DNA from: Candidatus Omnitrophota bacterium
GTDB lineage: Bacteria; Omnitrophota; Gorgyraeia; Gygaellales; Profunditerraquicolaceae
Length of the DNA: 64,000 nucleotides
NCBI GenBank assembly: GCA_035402765.1
Contig: DAONDX010000002.1
Coordinates: forward strand, 65,173-129,172
Reading direction: 5' to 3'
Shown piece after piece: positions 14,447 to 34,055 of the stretch (the first letter of the stretch is position 1; each line of letters opens with the position of its first letter). The notes below the pieces were generated by a model. The model saw only the letters and a list, made by a program, of their open reading frames with translations, did no database searches and was not told where the DNA came from. A program made the position numbers and the translations under genes.

Positions 14447-15073
14447 TTATTGGGAACCGGTTTTATTCAAATACGGGACAATGACCTGGTATACACGCTT
14501 GGCGATCATCTGATAACCGCGGGCATTCGGATGGAAAAAATCGCTTTTCATGGCGGGATTAGTAATAATTTTATTCAACAGCACCGGGATAAATATTGCT
14601 TTTTTCTGGGCAGCCAGCTTTTTAAAAGCCTGGCGATACTCCTGAAAAAATGCTCCCGCGCTGATATCGACCAAAGCCACCATCGCGCCGGCCTGCTGAA
14701 TCCGGTCAATAATGATCCCTAAATTTTCAACCGTATTCTTCTTGGAAATTTTTCTAAGAAAATCATTTCCGCAAAATTCTACGATTACCAGCTTCGGATC
14801 CTTGCTTAAAACATCGTTTTCCAGGCGCTCTAAAGCCTCAAAAGTAGTATCCCCGTCCACCCCGGCATTAATGACCGGAAAACTGAGTAATTTACTCAAA
14901 CCCGCAGGATAATCTTCGCCGGGATTAGCGCCATATCCGAAAGTGATACTGTCTCCGAAACAAATAATATTTTCTCCCTTAGCGGCCAAGTTGGCTATTT
15001 CGGGTTTAGCGCCGCAACCGTTTAAGATAAACAAAAACAGGATAAAAAATAAACCGCTTTTAATTTTGCTCAT
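14447..15073 (-). CDS. SGNH/GDSL-family hydrolase lipoprotein
   Basis: 208 aa. Lipobox LNGCG. GDSL block ICFGDSITFGYG. Catalytic His near C-terminus (DFFHPN). Confidence 0.75.
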   Translation of the reverse strand: MSKIKSGLFFILFLFILNGCGAKPEIANLAAKGENIICFGDSITFGYGANPGEDYPAGLSKLLSFPVINAGVDGDTTFEALERLENDVLSKDPKLVIVEFCGNDFLRKISKKNTVENLGIIIDRIQQAGAMVALVDISAGAFFQEYRQAFKKLAAQKKAIFIPVLLNKIITNPAMKSDFFHPNARGYQMIAKRVYQVIVPYLNKTGSQ

Positions 15074-16091
15074 ATTTTAACCTTAATTGGCCGCAAGCCG
15101 CATCAATATCCTGCCCGCGCTTGCGCCTTAATGTCACATTCAATCCGGCATTAAATAAGTAATCTTTAAAAGCATCTATTTGCGCCTCATCCGGCGGTAA
15201 AATTTTTGCTTCCGGTACGCAGTTTGCCGGAATTAAATTTACTTTAGCTAATCTTAAATCTTTTAACAGCCTGACTAAATTTTCTGCCGCAGCAAGCTGC
15301 GCATTAACCCCTTTGATCAAAATATACTCAAAGGTGATCTGCCGGTTCGTGCGGGCAATATATTCCCGGCAGCATTTGATTAATGCCGGCAGCGGATATT
15401 TATTATTTACGGGCATAAGTTTGCTGCGGGTTAAATCATCAGCCGCATGCAAAGATATGGAGAGTTCAATTTGTAAATCCTCTTGCGGCAGCCTTTCTAT
15501 CCCCGGAATGATCCCGCAGGTAGAAATGGTAATTCTTCTGGCCCCGATATTAAAAGCCGCCGGCAAATTAATTACCCGGATCGCCTTGAGCACATTATCA
15601 TAGTTATCTAAAGGCTCCCCCGTGCCCATAAATACAACGTGCGTTAAAGGCTGGACTTGCTCCTGATGCTTTAAATAAAGCACCTCATCTAAAATTTCAC
15701 CGCTCGTTAAATTGCGTTTAAATCCTTTAATTCCGCTGGCGCAGAAATTACAACCGAACTTACAGCCTGCCTGCGAGGAGATGCAGCCCGTGCTATAACC
15801 GGACATCGGGATATTTACCGCTTCCACCAGGTTTTGATCAGTTAATTCAAAAAGAAATTTCGCTGTTCCGTCGCTAGAGGACTGTAAATCCGCCAGAGCC
15901 AAGTTTAAAATACTGAATTCTTCGCTTAAACGCTCTCTTAAAGATGCCGGCAGGTTGCTCATCCGGTTAAATTCATAAACGCCTTTTTGATAAATCCAGC
16001 CCAAAATCACCTTGGCATAGTACTTGGGGCCGCCCAGGGAAAGCAATTTGGCTTCCAGCTCTTTTTGGGTTAATTCCTTAATATCCTGCAT
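15060..16091 (-). CDS. rlmN: 23S rRNA/tRNA A2503/A37 C2-methyltransferase RlmN (radical SAM)
   Basis: 343 aa. CxxxCxxC (GCKFGCNFC). Second conserved Cys in ISTCG region. RlmN-family order of motifs. Confidence 0.85.
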   Translation of the reverse strand: MQDIKELTQKELEAKLLSLGGPKYYAKVILGWIYQKGVYEFNRMSNLPASLRERLSEEFSILNLALADLQSSSDGTAKFLFELTDQNLVEAVNIPMSGYSTGCISSQAGCKFGCNFCASGIKGFKRNLTSGEILDEVLYLKHQEQVQPLTHVVFMGTGEPLDNYDNVLKAIRVINLPAAFNIGARRITISTCGIIPGIERLPQEDLQIELSISLHAADDLTRSKLMPVNNKYPLPALIKCCREYIARTNRQITFEYILIKGVNAQLAAAENLVRLLKDLRLAKVNLIPANCVPEAKILPPDEAQIDAFKDYLFNAGLNVTLRRKRGQDIDAACGQLRLKYEQN

Positions 16092-16102
16092 CGGTTAAAT
16101 TC

Positions 16103-17605
16103 CTACTTTCTTAACTGCTCTTTATCAATTTTACCGACACGATTTTTAGGAAGCGCAAGACAAAATTCGAAATAATGCGGGATCTTAAAATGCGCCAGAT
16201 GCTGACGCAGGAAATAGCGCAGATCTTCGGTAGAAATACTTTTTCCTTCTTTGACCACTACAAAAGCTTTGGGGACTTCTCCTCTTAATTTATCGGTTAT
16301 GCCGATTACGGCGGCCTCAGCGATATCCGGATGTTTAAGTAAGCTTGCTTCTACTTCCGGCTCAAAAACAATCTCTCCGCCAACCTTAAGCATTTCTTTT
16401 TTTCTGCCTACAATATAAAGAAAACCCTCGGCATCAAATTTACCTAAATCGCCGCTATAAAACCAGCCTCCGCGGATAGTCGAGCGGGTTAACGGCTCAT
16501 CTTTAAAATATCCGGCCGTGACTACCCAGCTTTTAACTACTACTTCGCCGATTTCTCCGGCGGGCAGCTCCTGTCCATCCTCTGAAAATATTTTGACCTG
16601 GATCCAGGGAGCAGGACGGCCCACGCTTTCGATATTTTTAGAACCCATCGGCAAGACTACCGTAGGGGCATTGGTTTCGGTAAGGCCCCAGCCATTTAAC
16701 AGATAAGTGCGCGGGCAGAATTGCTGAAACCGGCGCAAAGCCTCCGGTGAATTTGACGCCCCGAAAGTAACGATCCAGCGCAAACTCGACAGATCAAAAG
16801 TCTCAAATTCTTTTAATTGCAAAAGCGCATAATACATCGAGGGGACAATCCAGAAGAAATTAACTTTATAATTCTGGATATTTCTTAAAAAATCCAGCGG
16901 CATAAAGCGTTCCATTAACACCAGGGTCAGCCCGAAAACAATGGTATTCTGGATATAGATCAGCCCCCCTAAATGCGAGAAGGGCAAAGCGCATAAAGTT
17001 GTGTCAGCCGGGCTAAGATCCGAATTCACAAAAAAAGCCATGGATTTCGGCGGGGCATCCAGCTGGGCATAACTGATCAAAACTCCTTTAGGTTTACCGG
17101 TAGTTCCGGAGGTATAAAAAATTATGGCGCAATCCTGCTCACGGACGGCTACCGCGGGGCTTAAGCTAGCTTGCGCAGATACTAACTCCTCAAAACTTAA
17201 TGCGCCTTCAGCTGGAGACTGGCAGGAAATAATATTCTCCAATAAAGGCAATTCAGACTTAAGCCTGGCGAATGAAATGTTGGCCTTGTGTTTAGTAATC
17301 AGAATTTTAGCTTCGCAATGGCTAAGACAGGAAAGGATTTCATCTTCGGTGAGCATAAAATCCAAAGGCACGCTGCAAGCCCCGATCGACCAGGTCGCTA
17401 AATAACTTAAAATATATTCCGGCCAACTGGGCAGGTAAATTGCTACTTTATCGCCGGGCTTTACTCCCAGTTTAAGCAGACTCTGGCTAAGCGCAAAAAC
17501 TTTATTCTTTAGCTGAGCAAAAGAAATTTGCTCCTGGCGAAAGATAATTGCTGTTTTATGCGCGTAGTTTTTGGCGCTTGCTTCTAAAACCTTAACAATA
17601 TCCAT
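16103..17605 (-). CDS. AMP-dependent acyl-CoA synthetase/ligase
   Basis: 500 aa. AMP-binding box YTSGTTGKPKGV. Downstream GWGLTE, YSGDLG and hinge K (KNRVGKIDK). Confidence 0.85.
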   Translation of the reverse strand: MDIVKVLEASAKNYAHKTAIIFRQEQISFAQLKNKVFALSQSLLKLGVKPGDKVAIYLPSWPEYILSYLATWSIGACSVPLDFMLTEDEILSCLSHCEAKILITKHKANISFARLKSELPLLENIISCQSPAEGALSFEELVSAQASLSPAVAVREQDCAIIFYTSGTTGKPKGVLISYAQLDAPPKSMAFFVNSDLSPADTTLCALPFSHLGGLIYIQNTIVFGLTLVLMERFMPLDFLRNIQNYKVNFFWIVPSMYYALLQLKEFETFDLSSLRWIVTFGASNSPEALRRFQQFCPRTYLLNGWGLTETNAPTVVLPMGSKNIESVGRPAPWIQVKIFSEDGQELPAGEIGEVVVKSWVVTAGYFKDEPLTRSTIRGGWFYSGDLGKFDAEGFLYIVGRKKEMLKVGGEIVFEPEVEASLLKHPDIAEAAVIGITDKLRGEVPKAFVVVKEGKSISTEDLRYFLRQHLAHFKIPHYFEFCLALPKNRVGKIDKEQLRK

Positions 17606-19092
17606 TAGAATCCATACCAGTAATTAACCAACGGTTTATTTTCGGCAGACTGATCGATAATTACGCTTTTAACCCGGGAATATTCCAGGAAACCCTGCCG
17701 GCCCAGCTCTTTGCCAAATCCGCTTTGTTTAAATCCCCCGTAAGGCAGTTCGTTATAAAACGCGCCATAGGTATTGATCCAAACCGTGCCGGCGTTTAGA
17801 TTGCCGGCTAACTCTTGCGCCAAATATAAATCCTTGCTCCAGATACAGGCGGCCAAACCAAAATCTACGCTGTTGGCTAAACTCGCCGCTTCATCTGAAC
17901 CTGAAAATTTGTGGATTAAAACTACCGGCCCGAAAACTTCCTCTTTAAAAATGTGTGAATGGACTCCCACATCCACTAATACCGTCGGTTCAAAAAAATA
18001 ACCGTTCTTTAATTCCGGGTTTTCCGGTATTTTCCCGCCGCAGATCACTTTAGCGCCTTCAGCTTTAGCTTTATCGATATAGGCAATCACTTTTTTGCGC
18101 TGGGCATCACTGATCAAAGGCCCCATTTGCGTCTCAGGATTATCAGCTAAACCTAATTTTATGCGTTTGGCCTTTTGCACGAAACTATCCAGAAAACTGT
18201 CGTAAATGGCCTCCTGAACAAAAATCCGGGACATGGCTGTACACATTTGGCCTTGATTAAGAAAAATGGAGGTCAGCGAACTGTTGACCGCCACATCTAA
18301 ATCTACATCATTAAATATCAAGCTGGCAGATTTACCTCCCAGCTCCATAATCATCTTTTTCACATTTTTCGAAGCATATGTCAGGATCTGTTTGCCTATT
18401 TCACTGCTGCCGGTGAAAGAAATCATATCCGCCCGCTTATCCTCACAAAGCGCCTGGCCGATTTTTACTCCGCTTCCGTTAATTACATTCACTACCCCGG
18501 GCGGCAAGCCGGCGGCATGGATAATCTTGGCCAACTCTAAAGCCGACAGCGGAGTCAGGCTGGAAGGTTTTAAGATCACGGTATTGCCGGCGGCCAGAGC
18601 CGAAGCCATTTTCCAGCAGGCCATTAAAAGCGGATAGTTCCAAGGCACAATTAAAACCACTACCCCCATCGGCTCGCGGATTATTTTTCCTTTGGCGTCG
18701 GAGGAGACATTGACCTCTTCCTGGCTTAAATAATCAATAAAATTATTCGCGATAAACTCGAAAGTTTTAGCGCAGGAGGGAATATCCATAAAAGTAGTTT
18801 CTTTGATCGGCTTTCCGGTGTTCTGCATTTCCAATTCCGCAAGCATCCCGGCATTGTCTAAAATTCCCTGGGCGATCCGGAAAATAAAATTTTTACGCTC
18901 GATTAAAGAAAACTGCGGCCAGGGACCCCGGTCAAAAGCTTCCCGGGCAGAAGCCAGCGCCAGGTCTACTTCTTTATCAGAAGCCAAAGAAGCTTCGGCA
19001 ATGACTTTGCCGGTCGAAGGATTGATAATATTTTGTTTCTCGGCCGTTTCGATAAATTGTCCGTTGATATAAAGCGGGCATTTAGAATTCAT
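17605..19092 (-). CDS. NAD(P)+ aldehyde dehydrogenase
   Basis: 495 aa. ALDH Glu/Cys sites (MELGGKSA; NQGQMCTAMSR). Confidence 0.9.
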   Translation of the reverse strand: MNSKCPLYINGQFIETAEKQNIINPSTGKVIAEASLASDKEVDLALASAREAFDRGPWPQFSLIERKNFIFRIAQGILDNAGMLAELEMQNTGKPIKETTFMDIPSCAKTFEFIANNFIDYLSQEEVNVSSDAKGKIIREPMGVVVLIVPWNYPLLMACWKMASALAAGNTVILKPSSLTPLSALELAKIIHAAGLPPGVVNVINGSGVKIGQALCEDKRADMISFTGSSEIGKQILTYASKNVKKMIMELGGKSASLIFNDVDLDVAVNSSLTSIFLNQGQMCTAMSRIFVQEAIYDSFLDSFVQKAKRIKLGLADNPETQMGPLISDAQRKKVIAYIDKAKAEGAKVICGGKIPENPELKNGYFFEPTVLVDVGVHSHIFKEEVFGPVVLIHKFSGSDEAASLANSVDFGLAACIWSKDLYLAQELAGNLNAGTVWINTYGAFYNELPYGGFKQSGFGKELGRQGFLEYSRVKSVIIDQSAENKPLVNYWYGF

Positions 19093-20087
19093 TAGCTGAT
19101 CCTCACTTCTTTAAATAACGCAAACAGCCGGGTAAAAGGGACATACCACTTGGAAAGCTGGCCTAATTGTCCGCTTAATTTCATCTTGCCTTGGGTAACC
19201 GCGACAAATGAATCCAGCTTGCCTAAAAATACCTGCTCCCATACGGGGCTCGGCGCAGAAATTACAAAAGGAGCATCGCTATCGGTATCTAATTTTATAA
19301 TTTTCCCTTCTTCAAAATTAAATTTAAAAACCGCTTCGCTGTTATCCAGCTTGATGGCTAATTTTACCGTCAGGCCCAGCTCTTTGCCTTTCTGGGCGAT
19401 AAAGGCATCCTGATTGACTAAATCCACAATCGCCTGGATATGTTCCCGGCTAAACATGCGGTATACCGGCTGGGTGCGCTTTAAATCCTCTTTCAGCGCG
19501 CTATCTAAATCATCTAAAATATCTTTATCCCATAGCCGGGCGATGGAAGCGCTTTTTACCGCCTCCTCCAAAGCCTCGGTAATACTTAAAGCATCCTGAA
19601 ATTTATCTCCCATTGCCACCGTCCCGTGATTCTTTAAAACTACCAGATTATTGGTTTTTAAGGCGGCAATTACAGGCTCGGTGTCGGTTACCGTGGGCGT
19701 TTCCTGCGGAATGACGGGAATATCCCCAAGATAAAACTTAGTTTCAAAGCTCATGGCTTTCAGGGCCTTGGCCACGGCAAAATATCCGTTAATTAACGGC
19801 GGATGACAATGCACCAGGACTTTAGCCGCAAAATTTTTATAAACCAAACTATGCAAAGGTAATTCCGAACTGGGCTTTAATTCTCCTTCAAATTTTGCGC
19901 TCGCCAAATTCACCTTAACAATATCGCTTTCTTTTAATTGGCCTAAGAATGTCCCGGTGCCGGTGATCAAAATATTTTCCTGGTCAATCCGGCAGCTTAA
20001 ATTCCCGGATTTAGCTACAGCCAAACCTGCGGCATAAAGCCTTTTACCGACCTCAATAATTTCTAACCGCAACGCTTGATCAGACAT
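19092..20087 (-). CDS. Class II aldolase/adducin-domain protein (MtnB/Ald2/FucA-like) fused to a C-terminal SCP2 sterol-carrier-like domain
   Basis: 331 aa. N-terminal ~210 aa with class II aldolase metal-binding His (LVHCHPP, KNHGTV). C-terminal ~110 aa SCP2-like (FVAVTQGKMKLSGQLGQL). Confidence 0.65.
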   Translation of the reverse strand: MSDQALRLEIIEVGKRLYAAGLAVAKSGNLSCRIDQENILITGTGTFLGQLKESDIVKVNLASAKFEGELKPSSELPLHSLVYKNFAAKVLVHCHPPLINGYFAVAKALKAMSFETKFYLGDIPVIPQETPTVTDTEPVIAALKTNNLVVLKNHGTVAMGDKFQDALSITEALEEAVKSASIARLWDKDILDDLDSALKEDLKRTQPVYRMFSREHIQAIVDLVNQDAFIAQKGKELGLTVKLAIKLDNSEAVFKFNFEEGKIIKLDTDSDAPFVISAPSPVWEQVFLGKLDSFVAVTQGKMKLSGQLGQLSKWYVPFTRLFALFKEVRIS

Positions 20088-21002
20088 TTAAACTCCCAGA
20101 TAAATATGCTTGGTAATTAATTCTGCCGGAGTAACATCAAAAGCCGGATAATACGCTTTAACTTCTTTGGGCGCCAGACGTAAACCCTGGTAAATCTTTA
20201 ATTCATCATCCGGCCGGATCTCAATTCTAATTTCTTGGCCGGTTTTTAATTTTGAGGCCGGCGGGCAAATCACATAAAAAGGAATCTTAAAATATTTGGC
20301 TACCACCGCGATCTGATAAGTGCCGATTTTATTGGCAATGTCACCGTTTTGGGTTAAGTGATCGGCGCCGACGATGATTTTAGTGACTTTACCTAATGAT
20401 AATAAATAAGCCACCATATTATCCGTAATAATCGTCACTTCAAACCCGGCGCGCATGATCTCCCAGGCAGTCAGGCGCGAACCCTGCAAATACGGACGCG
20501 TTTCCGTAGTATAGAAACTGATCTTTTTACCCTGCTCTTTGGCCAGTTGAGCGATTAACGGCATTAACCCGCTGATGTTACAATGTGTGAGAATTACGTC
20601 GCCGTCTTTAAGCAAATCCGCGGTTGCCTGTGCCTGTTGGATTCTTTTACCTTTAAGCATCTCCAAGAAACCCAGGATACTTTTTTCTAAAGGTGCGCCG
20701 CTTTTTTCCATTCCCAAAACCATATCGGTTAAGAACTTAAAAGACAGCGTTGGCCGGGTAGCATTGATCGCCTCAGCCACCTTGGCTAAATCTTTATTCT
20801 GGCGATGGCTTAAGATAAAGGTATACATGACTAAAAGCACCTGGCCCACGGCGCGGGTCTTCATCTCCTTAATCGCCCGGCAAGCCTGGAGATAATTCTT
20901 AGCCTTAATATAGGTAAGCTTCTGGGGGAGTTTAGTCTCATCCAGAATATAAATGGTATTGCCTTTTAATTGTATCGGCCAAAATAATGGAGAAAAGTTC
21001 AT
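20088..21002 (-). CDS. mtnA: eIF-2B alpha/beta/delta family protein, probable 5-methylthioribose-1-phosphate / 5-deoxyribose-1-phosphate isomerase (MtnA-like)
   Basis: 304 aa. eIF2B/MtnA fold signature (ILTHCN...GADHLTQNGD, TAWEIMRAGFEVTIITDN). Directly abuts the aldolase gene; stop and start are adjacent. Confidence 0.7.
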   Translation of the reverse strand: MNFSPLFWPIQLKGNTIYILDETKLPQKLTYIKAKNYLQACRAIKEMKTRAVGQVLLVMYTFILSHRQNKDLAKVAEAINATRPTLSFKFLTDMVLGMEKSGAPLEKSILGFLEMLKGKRIQQAQATADLLKDGDVILTHCNISGLMPLIAQLAKEQGKKISFYTTETRPYLQGSRLTAWEIMRAGFEVTIITDNMVAYLLSLGKVTKIIVGADHLTQNGDIANKIGTYQIAVVAKYFKIPFYVICPPASKLKTGQEIRIEIRPDDELKIYQGLRLAPKEVKAYYPAFDVTPAELITKHIYLGV

Positions 21003-21013
21003 GGTTTTGTTAT

Positions 21014-21082
21014 TTGCGGGCGGCTTGGGTGTTTTCGCAGCGCGTCAGCGCTAGAAAATACCCAGGACAGGACCCGCAAAAT
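21014..21082. repeat. Structured intergenic repeat, copy 1 (imperfect long inverted repeat around GCAGCGCGTCAGCGCTAG core)
   Basis: GCGGGCGGCTTGGGTGTTTTC-gcagcgcgtcagcgctag-GAAAATACCCAGGACAGGACCCGC. Near-identical copies at 22113-22182 and 28013-28090. Confidence 0.8.
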
Positions 21083-21086
21083 TGAT

Positions 21087-21881
21087 CTATTTACCCTCTA
21101 GCTTCTTTACCAACGCCAGCGCAATTTTAATTAAATTGCCTTCGGCCATATAATAAAGCGGATTCATAAAACCCATTTCACCGGTAACCACATTATCACT
21201 AACGGCCAGTATTGAACAAGCCTTGATATTATAGGTCTGACAAATCGTCAAAAGCGTTGAAGAAACCATGTCCACGGCTCTGGCGCCTTCCTTGCGCTTA
21301 GCTTCCACAATTTCGCGGGTCTCCCGCAGTAAAGCATCCGTAGTCCAGGCTTTGCCCCGGTGCACCCTTAAACCCATGCCGGTGGCAATCTCAAATAAAA
21401 GATCAGAGAGATTTTTATTACTCGCCGTCTTAAAATCTTTATCCACATAATACGGAGTAACTCCGTCGCCGCGGATAATTTCATCCACGATAAATAAATC
21501 CCCGATTTTAATATCCTCATCCAATGATCCGCAGGTACCCACGCGGACAATGTTCTGAATTCCGGCATTACACATTACTTCGGTAGTAATTGATGTATCC
21601 GTAGAGAATCTTCCGCCGTTAATCCCGGTGACCTTAATCCCTTCATAAGTTCCGGTGTACATAGTATATTCCATAAAGGAAAAATTCTTCATGGGATTTT
21701 CCAGTTTTTTCATTAAAACATCCAGGCGGTCGCGCGGCCCCGGTACAATCGCATACTTGCCTACATCCTGCGGCCTAAGCTGGACCATTGCCGTTAAATC
21801 TTTCCCTGTCAAATGAACTGCTTTTTGCATTTCCATATTAACTATTCCTCTCCTTAAATGAGCGGACAACTTACGGAGCAA
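21087..21881 (-). CDS. Purine/5'-methylthioadenosine/5'-deoxyadenosine nucleoside phosphorylase (PNP/UDP family 1)
   Basis: 264 aa. DeoD-like blocks (YTGTYEGIKVTGINGG; VRVGTCGSL; phosphate-binding region). True start may be an internal Met (MEMQK/MQKAV). Confidence 0.75.
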   Translation of the reverse strand: MLRKLSAHLRRGIVNMEMQKAVHLTGKDLTAMVQLRPQDVGKYAIVPGPRDRLDVLMKKLENPMKNFSFMEYTMYTGTYEGIKVTGINGGRFSTDTSITTEVMCNAGIQNIVRVGTCGSLDEDIKIGDLFIVDEIIRGDGVTPYYVDKDFKTASNKNLSDLLFEIATGMGLRVHRGKAWTTDALLRETREIVEAKRKEGARAVDMVSSTLLTICQTYNIKACSILAVSDNVVTGEMGFMNPLYYMAEGNLIKIALALVKKLEGK

Positions 21882-22182: not shown

Positions 22183-22184
22183 TC

Positions 22185-23096
22185 TTAAAGAGCAAACAGC
22201 TTTGCTAAATTCCCCCCCAGAATATTCTCCTTCTCCTCCTGGGTCAAATCCAAATCCTTAACCGCCTTAATACCTGCGGCAATATCCTGCTTAGCCGGCC
22301 AATCGCTGCCCCACAGAATACGCCGGGGCCCCATTAAATCTAAACTTAATAAAAAGTTAGCGCGGGTGGTGTCTCCGCTGGTATCCACATAAATATTTTT
22401 AAAATAATCCGACGGCAAACCTTGCAGATCTTTGACAAAATTCATCTTGCGCAGCATCTGATAGGTCGCATCAAAGCGCTGTTTTAGATAACAGATCGCC
22501 CCGCCGAAATAGGCAAAGATAAATCTGGTCCTGGGGAACTGCCTCAACACATCCGACATTAAAAGCTTGCCGGCTGAAATCGTAGTATCAAAAATATATT
22601 CAACTACCGGGGTAAGCAGCGGGTCCTTAACCCGTTCATAACCAATCGGGTTAACAATCTGGGAGTGCACAAAAATCGGCAGGCCTTTTTCTTCCGCCAG
22701 TTTATACACCGGTAAAAACATCTTATCATCTAAATATATCCCGTTATAGCTGGAAGCCAGAGAGACCGCTTTAAAACCTAATTCTTCGGTTACGCGTTTT
22801 ATTTCATCTACCACATCAATAGAATTATCAAAAGGAAGGATCGCAGCTCCGATAAATCTTTCCGGATAAGCCTTTAAAATCTTTCCCACATTATCATTAA
22901 ACAGATGGGCCACCTGGCTGATACTGCCTAATTTTAAATGCGCATCAGAAGTCGGATAGCTTAATACCGCCCGGTCAATACCGGCCTCATCCATCATCTT
23001 AAGCTGGGCCTCAATATCCCCCCAACCCTTATGGAAAAAGTGGGCATTAGAAATTATTTCATCCGGAAGCCAGTGGGAATGTGCGTCAATTAACAT
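22185..23096 (-). CDS. Amidohydrolase-2 family metal-dependent hydrolase/decarboxylase (ACMSD-like)
   Basis: 303 aa. N-terminal MLIDAHSHW metal-binding His pair. Later HS..V and D..W motifs typical of PF04909. Confidence 0.7.
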   Translation of the reverse strand: MLIDAHSHWLPDEIISNAHFFHKGWGDIEAQLKMMDEAGIDRAVLSYPTSDAHLKLGSISQVAHLFNDNVGKILKAYPERFIGAAILPFDNSIDVVDEIKRVTEELGFKAVSLASSYNGIYLDDKMFLPVYKLAEEKGLPIFVHSQIVNPIGYERVKDPLLTPVVEYIFDTTISAGKLLMSDVLRQFPRTRFIFAYFGGAICYLKQRFDATYQMLRKMNFVKDLQGLPSDYFKNIYVDTSGDTTRANFLLSLDLMGPRRILWGSDWPAKQDIAAGIKAVKDLDLTQEEKENILGGNLAKLFAL

Positions 23097-23527
23097 TAAT
23101 GCTCCGTGCTCTTTAGTATACGCTGGGTCATCTCTTGTTCATACATCGCCTTGATCCTAAAAAATTCTTTACGGCCAAGCTCTTTGACGATGGATTTCTC
23201 AATTGCCCGCAGCTTAACATCCAGAAAAATAAACTCGGTATTTTTCCTTAAACCTTGGCACTTTAGATCCGAACAAGCCTTTTCTTTAACGGCAATATAA
23301 GCCTGAAAATCACCTACCATCTTCTCAAGCTGGGCTTTTTCATGCGGCAGATACGCGCCCATCAGCTCATTTTTAATTTCCCTTAAGATATCTTGATCAA
23401 TGTCAACTTGGGTAAACTTGCGTTCAAACTTATCAAACGCCTCTTTGGTGGTTTTGTACAGCCAGATAAGATAACGTTTCTTTAGGTTCTTAATATCCTG
23501 ATTATCCATATTTACCTCCTTGCCCAC
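23096..23527 (-). CDS. Hypothetical cytoplasmic protein
   Basis: 143 aa ORF, charged/helical. No recognisable motif. Start overlaps the stop of the upstream gene. Confidence 0.35.
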   Translation of the reverse strand: MGKEVNMDNQDIKNLKKRYLIWLYKTTKEAFDKFERKFTQVDIDQDILREIKNELMGAYLPHEKAQLEKMVGDFQAYIAVKEKACSDLKCQGLRKNTEFIFLDVKLRAIEKSIVKELGRKEFFRIKAMYEQEMTQRILKSTEH

Positions 23528-23602
23528 GGGGGCAACACCGACGCAATACCGCTTAGCGTCGGGTGATTCCGATTAGCGCCAGGCGTTAAACTACAATTGT
23601 AT

Positions 23603-24214
23603 TTATTTCTTTACCAATTCCACCGTATCAAAATAAAGGGTACCTTTGGTTCCGGGAAGCGGCTCAAATTGAAACATCCTGATCGGAAAATCCATTACTC
23701 CGTTTTGATCGGCATCCTGCGGCTGCCAATCATCACGCACGATGAATTTATCAAAACTAACCACTACTTTTTTCCAGCCGGCAAAATCGTCATCGGCGAT
23801 AAACCGCCAAATCTCACCCCCGGTATCTTTGATATCAAAAGCGATCTTAGCTTTTGAATTTGTCCCGTAGACATAAAAAGATACCGCGCTGTATTCTTCC
23901 CATTTGATATCGGAAGGCTTGACCGCCCAGTTAGCATTCTTGGCATCTAACCCGGCGCCGCGGGCAATATACATATAACCACCGCTGACCGCATCATAAT
24001 CAACCTTCAAAGCCTGTTTACCGCTATTTTTAATATCGCTGGCTCCGATCACCTGGATACTTGAACCATTGCCGGCGCCAAAATCCACGGTGCCGTCAGC
24101 GCCGCCGGAAACCACAATTTCAAAATCATCAAGCAAGACATTGCTCTCGGCTGCCCAACCGGCGCCCGAGATTAATAAAACTAAAGCTGCAGTTAAAAAT
24201 CCTGTTTTTTTCAT
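23603..24214 (-). CDS. Secreted protein of unknown function
   Basis: 203 aa. Clear signal peptide (MKKTGFLTAALVLLISGAGWA). Beta-rich composition. Confidence 0.45.
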   Translation of the reverse strand: MKKTGFLTAALVLLISGAGWAAESNVLLDDFEIVVSGGADGTVDFGAGNGSSIQVIGASDIKNSGKQALKVDYDAVSGGYMYIARGAGLDAKNANWAVKPSDIKWEEYSAVSFYVYGTNSKAKIAFDIKDTGGEIWRFIADDDFAGWKKVVVSFDKFIVRDDWQPQDADQNGVMDFPIRMFQFEPLPGTKGTLYFDTVELVKK

Positions 24215-24264
24215 TCCAATTTTCCCTTTCTAATATTTAACTTCTTTCCAGTTGCAATTTAGGC

Positions 24265-25071
24265 TTATTTTCCCGGATGCTGCTGTTTATAAGGTATCAC
24301 CGGAGCAACCCAGGGCGTTTGCTGGTTAATTACCGCGATCTCTAAAGGGCAGACATTAGCCGGGACGGTTAAAGCAAAACGCACCGCGTCTTCAATGGCC
24401 TGCGTGCTCATCAAACGCGAGGTATCCGTACTGATATTCTGAAGTTTACCGGTTAAGTCCGTATCGGTAACCCCGGGTAATATCGAAGTAACTTTAATCC
24501 CGTGGTCGCGCAATTCCCAAAACAAACCCTTGGAAAATGCCCTTAAGCCTACCTTAAGCGAGCTGTAAACGATAAAGGTCCTGGGCAGCGGGTCACATAA
24601 GGTCGAACCGGAGACCATATTAATGATCGCTCCGCTTTTATTCTTGATCATATCATTAATCACCAGGCGGATCATCCGCACATAGCCCAAATAATTAGTA
24701 TGCGCTAATTTCTCGAAATCCTCGATCGGCTGATCCTGAAAAGGATATTGGCTGGATACCCCGGCATTATTGATCAGGATATCGATCTGGCCAAACTTCT
24801 CTTTGGCGCTTTTGACTAAATTTTCCAGATCTTCTAATTTTGTCACATCGCAAGCTACCGGCAAAACCTGGACTTTAAATTTTTTGGCGATCTCATCGGC
24901 AGTCTCTTTTAAAGGGCCCAGATTACGCGCCCCGATCACTAAATTAACCCCAAGACTGGCGGCGGTACAGGCCAAGGCTTTGCCAATTCCACGGCTGGCA
25001 CCGGTAACAATTGCTGTTTTTCCTTTTAATTCTAAACTCATACCTCTCCTCCTTATGTACGTACATAACAC
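24265..25071 (-). CDS. Short-chain dehydrogenase/reductase (candidate polyketide ketoreductase)
   Basis: 268 aa. TGASRGIG Rossmann motif, NNAG, catalytic YxxxK (YSSLK). First gene-distal member of the PKS operon. Confidence 0.85.
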   Translation of the reverse strand: MLCTYIRRRGMSLELKGKTAIVTGASRGIGKALACTAASLGVNLVIGARNLGPLKETADEIAKKFKVQVLPVACDVTKLEDLENLVKSAKEKFGQIDILINNAGVSSQYPFQDQPIEDFEKLAHTNYLGYVRMIRLVINDMIKNKSGAIINMVSGSTLCDPLPRTFIVYSSLKVGLRAFSKGLFWELRDHGIKVTSILPGVTDTDLTGKLQNISTDTSRLMSTQAIEDAVRFALTVPANVCPLEIAVINQQTPWVAPVIPYKQQHPGK

Positions 25072-25108
25072 CGGCGCAGATCAAATAGGCGCCGGGTGAC
25101 TCTACCAA

Positions 25109-26242
25109 TTAGCCCCGGGTGTATATTTTATTTCCGACTACCCGGCTAAACATTAATAAAATCAGCAGCCCCGAACCAAACACTAAAAATCCTAAACCAA
25201 AACTTTTCTGCATGATCAAACCGCCCAAGCTCACTCCTATGCCGCCGGCAATAAAACGCACGGCGCTGTTTAGGCTTGCGGCTTCATTGAGAAGCTCCGC
25301 CGGCAGATCCGTAAGCATAGTGGATAAACCCACATGATTAAAAGTCCAGCCCATGCCCCAAACAATCATCACGACAGCCAATAACCCCACCGGCAACTTG
25401 ATCAAGAGCAGAAAAACACAGACGATCATCGAAAGAATGCCTAAATTTACCACTTTTAACCGGCCCAGGGAATCTGCCAGATGGCCTCCCCAAACTTCCC
25501 CGAATATCCCGGCTAAGCTGGTCAGAGTGATCAGCATGCTGATTAAAAACTGGTTTAAATTTAATTGCGTCGAGAAATAAACTCCCAGCCATTGCTGCAC
25601 AGCATGATAAATCAAACTTATCAGGAAAATATAGCCGAAAATTTTAATGACTTTTTTATTTTTAAACGCCTCGAAATAACCCAGGCGGAAATTTCCGGCA
25701 TCCGCTTTAAAACTGGGCAAATAAAAATACATAAAAATCCAAAGTATAAATCCACAGAGCGCCGGAATGAGAAAAATCAACCTCCAGGAAATTATCCCGC
25801 TTAAAAACAGGCCCAATAAAGAAGCTATGAATGTCGAGCCAAAAAATAAACCAAGATAACGGCCGCGCTTAGCCGGCTTTAGGTGTTTGGCAATCACGAT
25901 CAAGCCCAGAGGAATAACCGAGGCTCCAAAAAATCCCATCATAAACCGGGCCGCAAAAAGCACAGAGATATTACCCGCTGCGGCTGCCAAAAGATTAGCC
26001 AGGGAAAACAAGAAGATGCAGAATAATTCAACCTTGCGGGCATCAAATAAGCGTACCAACGGACCATACAGCAGCGCCGCCAGCCCGTAAGGAAGCATAT
26101 ACAACCAGATAATTTTGCCGACCACAAATTGAGAAAGAGCAAAATCCGCGGCAATTGAAGGAACCAGCGCAGCAGAGGCTGCCACATTAAACGATAGAAC
26201 CGCTCCTTCTAAACAAAGGATAATAAAGGTAAGTGCGCTCAC
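25109..26242 (-). CDS. MFS transporter (candidate product exporter)
   Basis: 377 aa, ~12 predicted TM helices. MFS loop motif (LFDARKV). 4-bp overlap with the upstream aromatase/cyclase gene. Confidence 0.8.
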   Translation of the reverse strand: MSALTFIILCLEGAVLSFNVAASAALVPSIAADFALSQFVVGKIIWLYMLPYGLAALLYGPLVRLFDARKVELFCIFLFSLANLLAAAAGNISVLFAARFMMGFFGASVIPLGLIVIAKHLKPAKRGRYLGLFFGSTFIASLLGLFLSGIISWRLIFLIPALCGFILWIFMYFYLPSFKADAGNFRLGYFEAFKNKKVIKIFGYIFLISLIYHAVQQWLGVYFSTQLNLNQFLISMLITLTSLAGIFGEVWGGHLADSLGRLKVVNLGILSMIVCVFLLLIKLPVGLLAVVMIVWGMGWTFNHVGLSTMLTDLPAELLNEAASLNSAVRFIAGGIGVSLGGLIMQKSFGLGFLVFGSGLLILLMFSRVVGNKIYTRG

Positions 26243-26679
26243 TTAGCCGCTTCTTTTTCAATAATCGCTTTAAAGATCTTCAGGTTATGCTGCGAGCCTT
26301 CGTTAATAAAACCTTCGATCTGTTGGTCATTAAATTTGGCTTTGGCATCCATATGAAAATGCTGAATCCAAGTTAATTCAATGCCCCCGGTAACCGGCGT
26401 GTAGAGCCAAATAATCTTCATATACTCAAAAGGAAACAGCGGATCTTCACGCTGCGAATAAGTAAAAAACTTATCTTTAAACAAAAGCCTCCAGGATTGC
26501 CAGGTTTTATCATCCTCATCGGTTAGACGAAAAGTAATTTTATTCGCCTCTTTCTTGACCAGCTCGGCTTTTTTATATTCCGTGCCGAATAATTCCGTCC
26601 AGCGCGGGATATCATTGGAAATATCAAAAACTAAATCGTAAGGCGCCTTAATCACTATCGAATTACAGGTATGTCCCAT
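26239..26679 (-). CDS. Type II PKS aromatase/cyclase of the SRPBCC family (TcmN N-terminal / WhiE-ORFVI / ZhuI-like)
   Basis: Track ORF 26239-26886 trimmed to the internal start MGHTCNSIVIKAPYDLVFDISND (ATG 26679-26677), preceded by GGGGGGATTAA Shine-Dalgarno. Pattern NSIVI.AP.DLV.D..ND...W..LF.EY..AE......FRL..DED..W.SW......Y..W.Y....GG..L.W.Q.F.M is the ARO/CYC polyketide_cyc2 signature as I recall it. Confidence 0.7.
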   Translation of the reverse strand: MGHTCNSIVIKAPYDLVFDISNDIPRWTELFGTEYKKAELVKKEANKITFRLTDEDDKTWQSWRLLFKDKFFTYSQREDPLFPFEYMKIIWLYTPVTGGIELTWIQHFHMDAKAKFNDQQIEGFINEGSQHNLKIFKAIIEKEAAK

Positions 26680-26892
26680 TTTAATCCCCCCAGTATTTTG
26701 CTCTTTTAAAATTAGCTGTTTACGCGGGATGACTTGGCTTGATTCTGAGCGGGGCGTGGAGGCAAGGAGTGGGCATGGTTCCGTCACTTTTATGTCAGAG
26801 AGCGACGCCAGCCGACCCGAGCGAAGTTTTGCCACGCTGGGGTAAAACGAGCGCCCCCGCGAAGAACAAGACAAGACAGACCGCAATAATTA
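26680..26892 (-). promoter_or_regulatory. About 210-bp GC-rich structured intercistronic leader inside the PKS operon
   Basis: No conserved coding signal (the track's N-terminal extension MRSVLSCSSRGRS... is low-complexity). Several local hairpins (e.g. AGTTTTGCCacgctgGGGTAAAACg). GC content visibly above the flanking genes. Confidence 0.3.
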
Positions 26893-27693: not shown

Positions 27694-27761
27694 CCCGCAC
27701 CTTCTCCTTTTTTTATGCTACCCCCTACCTTCTAATATTTAAATTATAGAAGGTGCGGGGT

Positions 27762-27998
27762 TCATTTTGCTAATTTGCTCTCAATATTAGCGGTGATATC
27801 ATTAATTGTGGAATTTTTGGTAATCTCTTTAGGGCTCAGCTTGACCCCGAAAGATTTCTCTAAAGCAATTACCGATTCCACCATCTCCGTAGAATCTACG
27901 CCGATACTGTCGATCAGAGTAGAACCATCTTTTAATTCCTCGATCTTTACTTTTAAGAGGTTGCTTAACACTTCTTTTACTTTTGTTTTTGTATCCAT
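27762..27998 (-). CDS. Acyl carrier protein
   Basis: 78 aa, acidic. Phosphopantetheine-attachment DS motif in GVDSTEMVESVIALE. Confidence 0.8.
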   Translation of the reverse strand: MDTKTKVKEVLSNLLKVKIEELKDGSTLIDSIGVDSTEMVESVIALEKSFGVKLSPKEITKNSTINDITANIESKLAK

Positions 27999-28012
27999 CT
28001 ATCCTCCAACAT

Positions 28013-28090
28013 TATTATTTACGGGTGGCTTGGGTGTTTTCGTAGCGCGTCAGCGCAAGAAAATACCCAAGACAGGACCCGTAAATTTTA
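28013..28090. repeat. Structured intergenic repeat, copy 3
   Basis: TTATTTACGGGTGGCTTGGGTGTTTTC-gtagcgcgtcagcgcaag-GAAAATACCCAAGACAGGACCCGTAAATT. Outer arm TTTACGGG/CCCGTAAA carries G>A and C>T changes that preserve pairing relative to copies 1 and 2. Confidence 0.8.
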
Positions 28091-29548: not shown

Positions 29549-29583
29549 TTAAAACCCTCCATTAGTTTAAAATATAATTAGCT

Positions 29584-32096: not shown

Positions 32097-32151
32097 TATT
32101 ACCTAAAACGGAATTCTTTTTTGCCAAGACGCAAGATTTTGCGTCTCTACG

Positions 32152-32745: not shown

Positions 32746-32746
32746 G

Positions 32747-34020: not shown

Positions 34021-34055
34021 AGTGGTTGGCTAAAATTAGCTGCGTTGGCCTTCTT

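What the first reader, a model, noticed from the sequence alone, without database searches (positions are those of the whole stretch)
16103..21881. DHAP-shunt-like 5'-deoxynucleoside/MTA salvage cluster with an unusual aldolase-SCP2 fusion and an oxidative tail (ALDH + CoA ligase)
In order, the cluster carries:
- a family-1 nucleoside phosphorylase
- an MtnA-like (eIF2B-family) isomerase
- a class II aldolase (MtnB/Ald2-like)
- an aldehyde dehydrogenase
- an AMP-dependent CoA ligase

The first three match the established 'DHAP shunt' described for Rhodospirillum rubrum and extraintestinal E. coli. That shunt cleaves 5-methylthioribulose-1-P or 5-deoxyribulose-1-P to DHAP plus (2-methylthio)acetaldehyde or acetaldehyde. 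In those organisms the aldehyde is reduced. Here an ALDH and a ligase follow, which suggests oxidation to the acid and CoA activation instead. The aldolase also carries a C-terminal SCP2 domain that I have not seen on MtnB/Ald2. The window holds four radical SAM enzymes (RlmN, the B12-binding radical SAM enzyme, the SPASM-type radical SAM protein and KamA), all 5'-deoxyadenosine producers, so a dAdo salvage route is plausible.
Basis: partly seen in the sequence, partly recalled or inferred. Interest (0 to 1): 0.55.

Follow-up and report, generated by a model that had tools for sequence, protein, structure and literature searches.

The report
Deoxynucleoside-splitting operon inside a polyketide cluster
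Five tightly coupled genes that should split an adenosine-type nucleoside into a sugar phosphate and a small acid, one of them an undescribed fusion of an aldolase to a lipid-binding domain, form the tail of a strongly conserved, uncharacterised polyketide and radical-SAM gene cluster typical of Omnitrophota bacteria.

Summary
On the minus strand lie a family-1 nucleoside phosphorylase, an MtnA-like isomerase, a class II aldolase fused to a true SCP2 domain, a hydrolytic aldehyde dehydrogenase and an adenylate-forming ligase. The last four are joined by TAAATG or TAATG junctions.

- The first three genes carry the catalytic residues needed for DHAP-shunt chemistry.
- The ALDH and ligase tail recurs in several different gene orders.
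- It is not a free-standing salvage cluster. In 80 Omnitrophota species genomes, and in distant relatives (33-41% identical aldolase) with reshuffled gene order, the module is joined to a KS/CLF-ACP-cyclase-ketoreductase-B12-radical-SAM cluster. In one case a phosphopantetheinyl transferase sits between the phosphorylase and the isomerase.
- One lineage keeps only B12-radical-SAM plus the module. Another keeps the module plus the ligase.

Best reading: a DHAP-shunt variant that processes the adenosyl-derived nucleoside made by radical SAM enzymes into DHAP plus an acid or thioester. Substrate identity, the role of SCP2 and the polyketide product are unknown.

It is a new variant of a known kind and worth biochemical follow-up.

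The parts
21087..21836 (-). Family-1 (PNP_UDP_1) nucleoside phosphorylase, 249 aa. It is a divergent DeoD/UP-like subfamily: it keeps Arg24, Arg87 and Asp204 (SDN) of DeoD and a UP-like N-terminal His, but has Val at the ribose-binding Glu181 position (AVDMVSS).
   Evidence: Start chosen from the RBS seen and the 249-aa orthologues.
20088..21002 (-). MtnA-like (eIF2B-related) aldose-1-P/ketose-1-P isomerase, 304 aa. The catalytic Cys (THCN) and Asp (GAD) are kept. The loop after the Cys and loops of the N-terminal domain are shorter than in solved MtnA structures.
   Evidence: (TIGR00524 210 bits, above its 185.85 cutoff; TIGR00512 224 bits, below its 279 cutoff).
19518..20087 (-). Class II (metal-dependent, DHAP-type) aldolase domain, residues 1-190. 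Across 26 family members G28, N29, S31, E75, H93, H95 and H154 are invariant.
19095..19472 (-). SCP2 (sterol carrier protein 2) fold domain, residues 206-331, joined to the aldolase by a low-confidence linker (residues 193-203).
17605..19092 (-). NAD(P)+ aldehyde dehydrogenase of the hydrolytic type, 495 aa (ELGGKS Glu, QMCTA Cys). Its start overlaps the aldolase stop (TAATG).
16103..17605 (-). Adenylate-forming acyl-CoA (or acyl-ACP) ligase, 500 aa, of the medium/long-chain or aryl type. Its start overlaps the ALDH stop.
   Evidence: (PRK06187 431 bits, below its 476 cutoff).
14447..16091 (-). RlmN (radical SAM rRNA/tRNA methyltransferase) and an overlapping GDSL/TesA-like esterase, 11 nt downstream of the ligase. 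They are probably co-transcribed. The ligase-RlmN-GDSL block moves as a unit in relatives.
22185..33751 (-). Upstream conserved type II PKS-like cluster. In transcription order: ApbA/KPR-like reductase, TIGR04076 protein, KS-alpha (Cys present), KS-beta/CLF (no Cys), BchE/HpnJ-like B12-binding radical SAM, ACP (27762-27998), PF04199 cyclase, SRPBCC cyclase, MFS, SDR ketoreductase, CBM11-like protein, 143-aa protein, Amidohydro_2.
   Evidence: Conserved linkage.
34159..35618 (-). PadR regulator and AccA (acetyl-CoA carboxylase carboxyltransferase alpha) at the head of the cluster. In L086 the same pair directly precedes the ligase-phosphorylase module.
21022..21063 (-). Core of a hairpin repeat (REP/MITE-like) in the phosphorylase-isomerase gap. 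Further copies lie at 22122-22163 and 28027-28068.

Best explanation
The five genes form one translationally coupled operon that performs DHAP-shunt-type chemistry with an oxidative, activating tail.

Proposed steps:
1. The phosphorylase cleaves a purine (adenine-type) nucleoside to a pentose-1-phosphate.
2. The MtnA-like isomerase makes the ketose-1-phosphate.
3. The class II aldolase splits it into DHAP and an aldehyde that carries C4'-C5' of the sugar.
4. The ALDH oxidises the aldehyde to the acid.
5. The ligase adenylates the acid and transfers it to CoA or an ACP.

The operon is not free-standing. It is a conserved part of a type II PKS-like / B12-radical-SAM cluster that is a hallmark of Omnitrophota and also occurs in Deltaproteobacteria-labelled MAGs.

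The most likely substrate is the adenosyl-derived nucleoside released by radical SAM enzymes, that is 5'-deoxyadenosine. This would yield DHAP plus an acetyl-level unit that can return to the cluster's KS/CLF-ACP machinery.

Shown: domain identities, catalytic residues, the fusion, gene coupling and conserved linkage.

Inferred: substrate, direction of flux, the fate of the acid, and any role of the SCP2 domain, which this model does not explain.
For: Domains and residues:
- Domain calls.
- The isomerase keeps the catalytic Cys and Asp, aligned to MtnA structures 1t9k and 2yrf.
- The aldolase keeps the Zn His triad, the catalytic Glu and the phosphate-binding G28/N29, invariant in 26 family members. 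Its fold matches FucA, DrdA and YgbL.
- The phosphorylase keeps the phosphate-binding Arg residues and the purine-specific Asp.

Coupling in the window:
- TAAATG/TAATG junctions link isomerase, aldolase, ALDH and ligase.

Linkage among 80 Omnitrophota species representatives:
- isomerase 72/73
- phosphorylase 54/60
- ALDH 65/65
- amidohydrolase 46/46
- SDR 43/43
- cyclase 37/38
- ligase 37/43 within 9 kb

Linkage in distant relatives:
- The same gene set appears in different orders in L084, L086 and L088. In L088 a PPTase sits between phosphorylase and isomerase.
- L089 keeps only B12-rSAM, phosphorylase, isomerase, aldolase-SCP2 and ALDH.
- L092 keeps phosphorylase, isomerase, aldolase-SCP2 and ligase.
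- A radical SAM gene lies within three genes of the fusion in 7 of 11 distinct context types: B12-rSAM, RlmN or MoaA-like.

Precedent:
Against: - The SCP2 lipid-binding domain, conserved in every family member, has no role with a small polar substrate.
- The ligase has Gly where acetyl-CoA synthetase has the pocket-closing Trp (GWGLTE; the Trp rule is my own knowledge). It best matches FadD5, anthranilate-CoA and feruloyl-CoA ligases.
- The phosphorylase is not MTAP-like. It keeps a UP-like His that in uridine phosphorylase contacts the 5'-OH (own knowledge), and it lacks the ribose-binding Glu.
- A subgroup of Omnitrophota has a class IV aminotransferase in place of the phosphorylase.
- Some fusion homologues stand with no radical SAM gene nearby (L085, L087, L092, L093).
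- No enzyme activity has been measured.
Confidence: 0.45

Rival explanations
1. Biosynthetic trimming of an adenosylated lipophilic intermediate. A radical SAM enzyme attaches the 5'-deoxyadenosyl group to a hydrophobic polyketide or lipid R, as MqnE does for aminofutalosine and HpnH does for adenosylhopane. The module then removes adenine and C1'-C3' (as DHAP), leaving R-CH2-CHO. This is oxidised to R-CH2-COOH and activated by the ligase. The net effect is a two-carbon carboxymethyl extension taken from the ribose of SAM. The SCP2 domain holds R.
For: - A conserved SCP2 fold sits on the aldolase, and UbiJ-SCP2 is among its structural matches.
- The ligase is of the medium/long-chain or aryl type.
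- The B12-rSAM and the module stay together even without PKS genes (L089).
- The cluster proteins are under stronger constraint than LeuS, as expected for a core product.
- The phosphorylase has an altered sugar pocket.
- The precedents of the futalosine and hopanoid side-chain pathways are my own knowledge.
Against: - The radical SAM enzyme is a B12-binding BchE/HpnJ-like protein, a class known for methylation and rearrangement, not adenosylation.
- No MqnE or HpnH homologue lies in the cluster.
- The phosphorylase scores far below HpnG (47 bits against a 187 cutoff) and the futalosine hydrolase model (26 against 125).
- RlmN and MoaA-like neighbours do not adenosylate substrates.
- The module also occurs with no radical SAM gene (L085, L092).
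Confidence: 0.2
2. Ordinary ribonucleoside catabolism. The phosphorylase makes ribose-1-phosphate from adenosine, inosine or guanosine. The isomerase converts it directly to ribulose-1-phosphate. The aldolase gives DHAP plus glycolaldehyde, and the ALDH gives glycolate. This would be a short-cut version of the haloarchaeal non-carboxylating pentose bisphosphate pathway. It could serve nucleoside scavenging by small, host-dependent Omnitrophota, or disposal of adenosine derived from SAH.
For: - The phosphorylase is closest to uridine and DeoD phosphorylases and keeps the N-terminal His.
- All 26 fusion-family members hit the ribulose-1-phosphate aldolase model (best E 8.9e-26), though below its cutoff.
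- The ALDH is generic.
Against: - To my knowledge no MtnA-family enzyme is known to isomerise ribose-1-phosphate efficiently.
- The Glu that binds the ribose 2'/3'-OH groups is replaced by Val.
- This reading explains neither the linkage to radical SAM and PKS genes, nor SCP2, nor the ligase.
Confidence: 0.12
3. A housekeeping, free-standing 5'-deoxyadenosine/MTA salvage operon. Its position next to the PKS cluster would be inherited gene order without functional meaning.
For: - The module occurs without PKS genes in L085, L089, L091 and L092.
- In the window it is followed by the housekeeping gene rlmN.
- The phosphorylase is highly conserved, at a median 85% identity.
Against: - Linkage to KS/CLF-ACP-cyclase-rSAM genes survives at least three different gene orders and two phylum labels, with a PPTase gene inserted inside the module in L088.
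- In many Omnitrophota the amidohydrolase of the PKS part ends less than 30 nt from the phosphorylase start.
Confidence: 0.13
4. The aldolase-fold domain is not an aldolase here. It would be a decarboxylase or dehydratase of the same fold (OtnC/YgbL-like, PhtC-like or MtnB-like) acting on a polyketide-derived or sugar-acid substrate, and the neighbouring genes would serve another pathway.
For: - The best solved-structure match is YgbL/OtnC.
- No NCBIfam equivalog cutoff is reached by any of the 26 family members.
Against: - A phosphorylase and an MtnA-like isomerase are constant partners upstream, and an ALDH or ADH lies downstream. This points to a ketose-1-phosphate substrate and an aldehyde product.
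- The phosphate-binding and metal-binding residues of FucA are invariant.
Confidence: 0.07

Closest known systems
DHAP shunt / 5-deoxyribose disposal (Rhodospirillum rubrum MtnP-MtnA-Ald2; ExPEC E. coli Pfs-MtnK-MtnA-Ald2; Bacillus thuringiensis DrdK-DrdI-DrdA)
   Same: - The reaction logic and enzyme families match: a nucleoside is converted to a pentose-1-P, an MtnA-type isomerase acts on it, and a class II aldolase gives DHAP plus an aldehyde (PMC6079011, PMC10986504).
- DrdA (6btd) is among the best structural matches.
   Different: - The phosphorylase is DeoD/UP-like, not MTAP-like.
- The aldolase carries an SCP2 domain.
- The aldehyde is oxidised by a coupled ALDH, and a ligase follows. 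Published systems reduce the aldehyde or leave it to general metabolism.
- The module is embedded in a PKS / radical-SAM cluster.
Fluoroacetate pathway of Streptomyces cattleya (FlB phosphorylase, 5-FDRP isomerase, fuculose-type aldolase, fluoroacetaldehyde dehydrogenase)
   Same: The four-step order is identical: phosphorylase, isomerase, aldolase, aldehyde dehydrogenase. It acts on a SAM-derived 5'-substituted 5'-deoxyadenosine within secondary metabolism (mentioned in PMC6079011; the details are my own knowledge).
   Different: - No fluorinase- or chlorinase-type gene (SAM_adeno_trans family) was found in the window or in the related clusters.
- The CrcB gene next to the module in L001 is a variable insertion.
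Futalosine (MqnE/MqnB) and hopanoid side-chain (HpnH/HpnG) pathways
   Same: A radical SAM enzyme is paired with a PNP_UDP_1-family adenine-removing enzyme, and carbons of the ribose of SAM are retained in a lipophilic product (own knowledge).
   Different: - No MqnE or HpnH homologue is present.
- The phosphorylase scores far below the HpnG and futalosine hydrolase models.
- Those pathways use no isomerase or aldolase.
Gram-negative type II PKS clusters such as the Photorhabdus anthraquinone (ant) cluster
   Same: The accessory set is the same: KS, CLF, ACP, ketoreductase, SRPBCC aromatase/cyclase, PF04199 cyclase, CoA ligase and PPTase (the composition of the ant cluster is my own knowledge). 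KS-CLF pairs in Candidatus Omnitrophica are listed in a catalogue without a product (PMC10132072).
   Different: The cluster here additionally carries a B12-radical SAM enzyme, an Amidohydro_2 protein, a KPR-like reductase and the nucleoside-processing module. Its KS-alpha is FabF-like.
SCP2-domain fusion enzymes (alkylsulfatases SdsA1/Pisa1, MFE-2, UbiJ/UbiT)
   Same: An SCP2 fold is appended to, or works alongside, an enzyme to recruit a hydrophobic substrate. These proteins are the structural matches of the C-terminal domain.
   Different: The catalytic partner here is a sugar-phosphate aldolase. I found no record of such a fusion.

Membership tests
DHAP shunt (5'-deoxynucleoside to DHAP plus aldehyde) | An enzyme that makes 5-deoxy- or 5-methylthio-ribose-1-phosphate (an MtnP/MTAP-type phosphorylase, or a nucleosidase plus MtnK/DrdK kinase) | tested here: inconclusive
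   A family-1 phosphorylase is present. It scores 21 bits on the MTAP model TIGR01694 (cutoff 275), and 100 and 88 bits on the uridine and DeoD models, all below cutoff. Specificity for the 5' group cannot be read from the sequence.
DHAP shunt | An MtnA/DrdI-type pentose-1-phosphate isomerase with catalytic Cys and Asp | tested here: met
   TIGR00524 scores 210 bits, above its 185.85 cutoff. THCN and GAD align with 1t9k, 1t5o and 2yrf. The equivalog TIGR00512 is not reached (224 against 279).
DHAP shunt | A class II metal-dependent aldolase that binds DHAP (His triad, catalytic Glu, phosphate-binding Gly-Asn and Ser) | tested here: met
   G28, N29, S31, E75, H93, H95 and H154 are invariant in 26 members. 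The fold matches FucA, DrdA and YgbL at TMt 0.77-0.83. Aldolase activity itself was not tested.
DHAP shunt | Substrates are 5'-deoxyadenosine and/or MTA, and products are DHAP plus acetaldehyde or (2-methylthio)acetaldehyde | not testable with these tools
   This needs enzyme assays. Only indirect support is available, from the linkage to radical SAM genes.
MtnB (methylthioribulose-1-P dehydratase, methionine salvage) | Membership of the MtnB equivalog, with downstream MtnC/MtnD-type genes present | tested here: not met
   TIGR03328 scores 64.6 bits against a 137 cutoff, and NF006672 scores 68.9 against 226. No enolase-phosphatase or acireductone dioxygenase domain appears among the annotated window genes.
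   TIGR01086 scores 45 bits against a 400 cutoff, and RhaD NF002963 scores 39 against 170. All 26 family members are nearest to PRK08660, methanogen-type FucA and OtnC, but below every cutoff. The fusion family forms a clade of its own.
SCP2 (sterol carrier protein 2) fold | An alpha/beta SCP2 fold and the C-terminal (A/V)xxQGK(L/M)K(L/I)xG motif | tested here: met
   Pfam SCP2 is above cutoff. The profile hits only SCP2-fold chains. Foldseek gives TM 0.86 to 2cx7, and all of the best 46 matches are SCP2-type. The motif VTQGKMKLSGQ is present. Ligand binding was not tested.
Acetyl-CoA synthetase (the step needed for acetaldehyde to acetate to acetyl-CoA) | Acs equivalog membership and the Trp that closes the acyl pocket | tested here: not met
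   The acetate-CoA ligase model NF003313 scores 243 bits against a 729 cutoff. The best solved relatives are FadD5, anthranilate-CoA and feruloyl-CoA ligases. The sequence GWGLTE has Gly at the Trp position (the rule is my own knowledge).
Type II polyketide synthase (minimal PKS) | KS-alpha with the active-site Cys, a CLF lacking it, a discrete ACP, and aromatase/cyclase accessory genes | tested here: met
   KS-alpha has STGCTAG, KS-beta has VSDRASS with no Cys, and the ACP has GVDSTE. PF04199 and SRPBCC cyclases and an SDR are present. The product and chain length are unknown.
Fluorometabolite-type pathway | A fluorinase or chlorinase that makes the 5'-halo-5'-deoxyadenosine | tested here: not met
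   No such domain appears in any annotated gene of the window or of loci L084-L093.

The most novel reading that the evidence does not exclude
The cluster would encode a new biosynthetic logic. A radical SAM enzyme adenosylates a hydrophobic polyketide or lipid intermediate. The phosphorylase, isomerase and aldolase-SCP2 then cut away adenine and DHAP. The ALDH and ligase convert what remains into an activated carboxymethyl-extended acid for the KS/CLF system. SAM's ribose would serve as a two-carbon building block, and the product (a lipid or quinone-like core metabolite) would be a phylum-wide trait of Omnitrophota.
Probability: 0.17. Interest if true: 0.9.

Novelty: new variant of a known kind. 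Interest (0 to 1): 0.62.

Why it matters
- The DHAP shunt is known as a stand-alone detoxification or carbon-salvage route. Here the same chemistry has a built-in oxidation and activation tail, a lipid-binding domain on the aldolase, and a fixed place inside a polyketide / radical-SAM cluster.
- That cluster is better conserved than leucyl-tRNA synthetase across Omnitrophota, a large uncultured phylum of very small, possibly host-dependent bacteria.
- If the module only recycles 5'-deoxyadenosine, it is the first case of by-product salvage being built into a biosynthetic cluster.
- If it trims an adenosylated intermediate, it is a new way of using SAM as a carbon donor.
- Either way it gives a defined, testable handle (five soluble enzymes) on the unknown product of a phylum-wide gene cluster.

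Tried and rejected
- **Fluorinated or halogenated starter unit.** The enzyme order matches the fluoroacetate pathway, and CrcB sits next to the module in L001. I rejected the idea. No fluorinase- or chlorinase-type gene occurs in the window or in any related locus, and the CrcB-MazG-DUF190 block is a variable insertion.
- **Riboswitch upstream of the phosphorylase.** No Rfam family was found at gathering threshold in the whole window, nor at E up to 10 in 21780-22200. The structured leader is absent from relatives, where the gap is under 30 nt.
- **Promoter and terminator scan of 14000-23500.** Counts were no higher than in shuffled sequence, so it is uninformative.
- **Search of genomes with the 26-sequence alignment.** The 7-sequence alignment returned only Omnitrophota at 67% identity or more.
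- **Literature.** Searches found nothing for SCP2 with class II aldolase, MtnA with PKS and radical SAM, Omnitrophota with methionine salvage, or sterol carrier protein with fuculose and fusion.
- **Placing the aldolase domain with Ald2, MtnB or FucA.** No curated model is reached. I had no Ald2 sequences for a tree.
- **Solved relatives of the B12-rSAM.** The hits (AprD4, TokK, CysS) are too distant to assign a reaction.

Full report
**1. What is in the sequence**

All genes of the finding lie on the minus strand. The window comes from a Candidatus Omnitrophota genome: the aldolase protein is 100% identical to one from an Omnitrophota MAG.

Pfam and NCBIfam results, in transcription order:

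| Gene | Coordinates | Result |
|---|---|---|
| Phosphorylase | 21836..21087 | PNP_UDP_1; ORF could extend to TTG 21881, but an ATG behind GGAGAGG gives the 249 aa seen in orthologues |
| Isomerase | 21002..20088 | eIF2B-related; TIGR00524 210 bits, above cutoff; MtnA equivalog 224 against 279 |
| Aldolase-SCP2 | 20087..19092 | Class II aldolase plus SCP2 |
| ALDH | 19092..17605 | Aldehyde dehydrogenase with the hydrolytic Glu and Cys motifs |
| Ligase | 17605..16103 | Adenylate-forming ligase |

The isomerase stop is followed at once by the aldolase ATG (TAAATG). The aldolase/ALDH and ALDH/ligase junctions are TAATG overlaps. RlmN follows 11 nt after the ligase, and a GDSL esterase overlaps RlmN.

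**2. The fusion is real and widespread**

- An AlphaFold model of the 331-aa protein has mean pLDDT 90.5, with only the linker (residues 193-203) at low confidence.
- Residues 1-190 match YgbL/OtnC, FucA and the 5-deoxyribulose-1-P aldolase DrdA.
- A profile of the last 125 residues finds only SCP2-fold chains in the PDB.
- A separate model of that domain (pLDDT 95.3) superposes on Thermus SCP2 at TM 0.86. Its other matches are UbiJ-SCP2, MFE-2 SCP2 and the SCP2 domains of alkylsulfatases.
- An exhaustive search of 1.84 billion cluster representatives gave 47 hits below E 1e-30. About 25 of them are full-length fusions at 25-57% identity.
- Across these fusions G28, N29, S31, E75, H93, H95 and H154 are invariant. 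They are the FucA-type phosphate, catalytic Glu and metal ligands.
- 319 species-level genomes encode a relative.
- No member reaches any curated NCBIfam cutoff. The family is nearest to PRK08660 'aldolase', methanogen-type FucA and OtnC, and is clearly not MtnB, FucA or RhaD.
- I found no paper describing such a fusion.

**3. The context changes the interpretation**

Directly upstream, on the same strand, lies a type II PKS-like cluster. Reading in the direction of transcription it contains:
- PadR and AccA
- a KPR-like reductase and a TIGR04076 protein
- KS-alpha, with the active Cys
- a CLF-like KS-beta, without the Cys
- a BchE/HpnJ-like B12-binding radical SAM enzyme
- an ACP
- a PF04199 cyclase and an SRPBCC cyclase
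- an MFS transporter and an SDR ketoreductase
- a CBM11-like protein and a 143-aa protein
- an Amidohydro_2 protein

Presence of each gene next to the fusion, among 80 Omnitrophota species representatives:

| Gene | Present / evaluable loci |
|---|---|
| ALDH | 65/65 |
| Isomerase | 72/73 |
| Phosphorylase | 54/60 |
| Amidohydrolase | 46/46 |
| SDR | 43/43 |
| Cyclase | 37/38 |
| B12-rSAM | 33/37 within the available flank |
| Ligase | 37/43 within 9 kb |

In many of these genomes the amidohydrolase ends less than 30 nt before the phosphorylase. Median identities to the window are 88% for the rSAM, 85% for the phosphorylase and SDR, and 80% for LeuS. The cluster is therefore under housekeeping-level constraint.

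**4. Distant relatives test whether the linkage is more than inherited order**

| Locus | Aldolase identity | Gene order |
|---|---|---|
| L084, L086 | 39-40% | PadR, ligase, phosphorylase, isomerase, small IF-2B-like ORF, aldolase-SCP2, ALDH, B12-rSAM, KPR, KS, CLF, ACP, cyclases, MFS |
| L088 | 38% | KS, CLF, ACP, cyclases, SDR, 137-aa protein, rSAM, amidohydrolase, phosphorylase, PPTase, isomerase, small IF-2B, aldolase-SCP2, ALDH |
| L089 | 37% | B12-rSAM, phosphorylase, isomerase, small ORF, aldolase-SCP2, ALDH; no PKS genes within 10 kb |
| L092 | 36% | MarR, Fe-S/CCG protein, phosphorylase, isomerase (508 aa), aldolase-SCP2, ligase; genes overlap |
| L085 | 35% | LpxL-like acyltransferase, phosphorylase, isomerase, small IF-2B, aldolase-SCP2 |
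| L091 | 35% | Phosphorylase, aldolase-SCP2, unknown protein, RlmN |
| L090 | 35% | Small IF-2B, aldolase-SCP2, with a MoaA-type rSAM two genes upstream |
| L093 | 33% | Aldolase-SCP2, DeoC, Zn-ADH |
| L087 | 32% | Fusion alone |

- In L084 and L086 the ligases are 51-54% identical to the window's ligase. These loci probably come from other Omnitrophota lineages, because L086 shares the window's upstream genes.
- L088 comes from a lineage whose rSAM cluster includes a protein labelled 'Deltaproteobacteria bacterium'.
- L085 is labelled Syntrophaceae.

Taken together:
- The phosphorylase, isomerase and aldolase-SCP2 form the stable core.
- ALDH, ligase and a radical SAM gene are recurrent partners in several independent arrangements.
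- The PKS genes are linked in four arrangement types.

**5. How it most likely works**

- The isomerase keeps the catalytic Cys and Asp of solved MtnA enzymes.
- The coupled ALDH implies an aldehyde product that is oxidised rather than reduced.
- The ligase implies that the acid is activated.
- Radical SAM enzymes of different families are recurrent neighbours. What they have in common is 5'-deoxyadenosine, so this is the most economical substrate.
- On that reading the module returns the by-product as DHAP plus a C2 acid or thioester, next to an acetyl-CoA carboxylase subunit and a KS/CLF-ACP system.
- I give this reading 0.45.

**6. What does not fit**

- The SCP2 domain is a lipid or hydrophobic-ligand binder and is conserved throughout the family. 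A 5-deoxyribulose-1-phosphate substrate gives it nothing to do.
- The ligase best matches FadD5, anthranilate-CoA and feruloyl-CoA ligases. It has Gly at the position where acetyl-CoA synthetases have the pocket-closing Trp (the rule is my own knowledge).
- All five cluster-type phosphorylases examined carry AVDM(V)SS where DeoD has GVEMEAA. The Glu that binds the ribose hydroxyls is Val. They keep the purine-specific Asp and a uridine-phosphorylase-like N-terminal His.

These points keep a more unusual reading alive, at 0.2: the substrate is a 5'-adenosylated hydrophobic intermediate, trimmed to R-CH2-COOH. This would be analogous in logic to the futalosine and hopanoid side-chain pathways. 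Against it, the rSAM is a B12-binding BchE/HpnJ-like enzyme, and no MqnE- or HpnH-type gene is present.

The remaining readings are:
- plain ribonucleoside catabolism to glycolaldehyde (0.12)
- a free-standing housekeeping operon with meaningless adjacency (0.13)
- a non-aldolase function of the fold (0.07)

**7. Comparison with known systems, and novelty**

- The module works like a DHAP shunt and meets the isomerase and aldolase criteria. Its phosphorylase is not the MTAP type, and substrate identity could not be tested.
- It has the same four-enzyme order as the fluoroacetate pathway but lacks a fluorinase.
- The surrounding cluster resembles Gram-negative type II PKS clusters. A catalogue lists KS-CLF pairs in Candidatus Omnitrophica without any product or mention of this module (PMC10132072).
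- I rate it a new variant of a known kind: known chemistry in a new architecture (aldolase-SCP2 fusion, oxidative and activating tail) and a new setting (integral part of a conserved PKS / radical-SAM cluster).
- Interest is 0.62. A specialist would be surprised by the fusion and by the embedding, and the five soluble enzymes make the unknown phylum-wide cluster experimentally approachable.

Noticed in passing
window 21022-21063, 22122-22163, 28027-28068 (minus strand); full hairpin about 22105-22188: An ~85-nt near-perfect hairpin repeat (REP/MITE-like) occurs three times, always in intergenic gaps of this cluster. No occurrences are expected by chance. The RNA fold has dG -48.5 kcal/mol and z -9.65. 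It accounts for the unusually long gaps on either side of the phosphorylase gene.
   Followed up: partly
window 21837-22100 (minus strand): A structured 270-nt leader with several hairpins lies upstream of the phosphorylase (z -4.7). It matches no Rfam family. It is not conserved: in many relatives the amidohydrolase and phosphorylase genes are less than 30 nt apart.
   Followed up: partly
window 22185-35618 (minus strand): A type II PKS-like cluster (KS/CLF, ACP, two cyclases, KR, B12-rSAM, Amidohydro_2, KPR-like reductase, TIGR04076 protein, MFS, PadR, AccA) is conserved across Omnitrophota more strongly than LeuS: rSAM median 88% identity against LeuS 80%. Its product is unknown and it merits a finding of its own.
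   Followed up: partly
L084 9583-10008; L085 9361-9879; L086 9306-9785; L088 9534-10004; L089 9568-10008; L090 9528-10028; L092 6478-8004: A small IF-2B-like ORF of 141-172 aa carries the motif PExRPxLxG...TDNM but has no GAD catalytic motif. It sits between the isomerase and the aldolase-SCP2 in distant relatives and overlaps the aldolase start. In L092 it is fused to the isomerase (508 aa). It is absent from the window-type Omnitrophota. It may be a non-catalytic partner subunit.
   Followed up: partly
L069 8201-9013; L053 6926-7813: In a subgroup of Omnitrophota (at least L053 and L069) a class IV aminotransferase gene occupies the place of the phosphorylase, between the amidohydrolase and the isomerase. 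L063 and L066 share the rearranged layout and also lack a phosphorylase hit.
   Followed up: partly
window 21087-21836 and orthologues in L084, L085, L086, L088: All cluster-type phosphorylases have Val where E. coli DeoD has the ribose-binding Glu181 (AVDMVSS against GVEMEAA), and Asp at the Glu179 position. This suggests an altered sugar pocket.
   Followed up: partly
L001 6313-7408: A MazG-CrcB (fluoride exporter)-DUF190 block is inserted between the amidohydrolase and the phosphorylase in some relatives, and a response-regulator gene in others (L002). This is a variable insertion hot spot at the same place as the hairpin repeats in the window.
   Followed up: no
window 51087-54262 (minus strand): A KamA-like lysine 2,3-aminomutase-type radical SAM gene is followed by two D-Ala-D-Ala-ligase-like ATP-grasp genes. 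This may be a beta-amino-acid ligation operon.
   Followed up: no
window 14097-14169 and 14263-14345 (plus strand): Two tRNA genes lie on the opposite strand, between the GDSL esterase and nfo. They mark the downstream end of the operon block.
   Followed up: no
L091 8008-9405: A 465-aa protein with no Pfam match, a signal-peptide-like N-terminus and a Tyr/Gly/Ser-rich C-terminal half ending in F (outer-membrane beta-barrel-like) sits between the aldolase-SCP2 and RlmN in one distant lineage.
   Followed up: no
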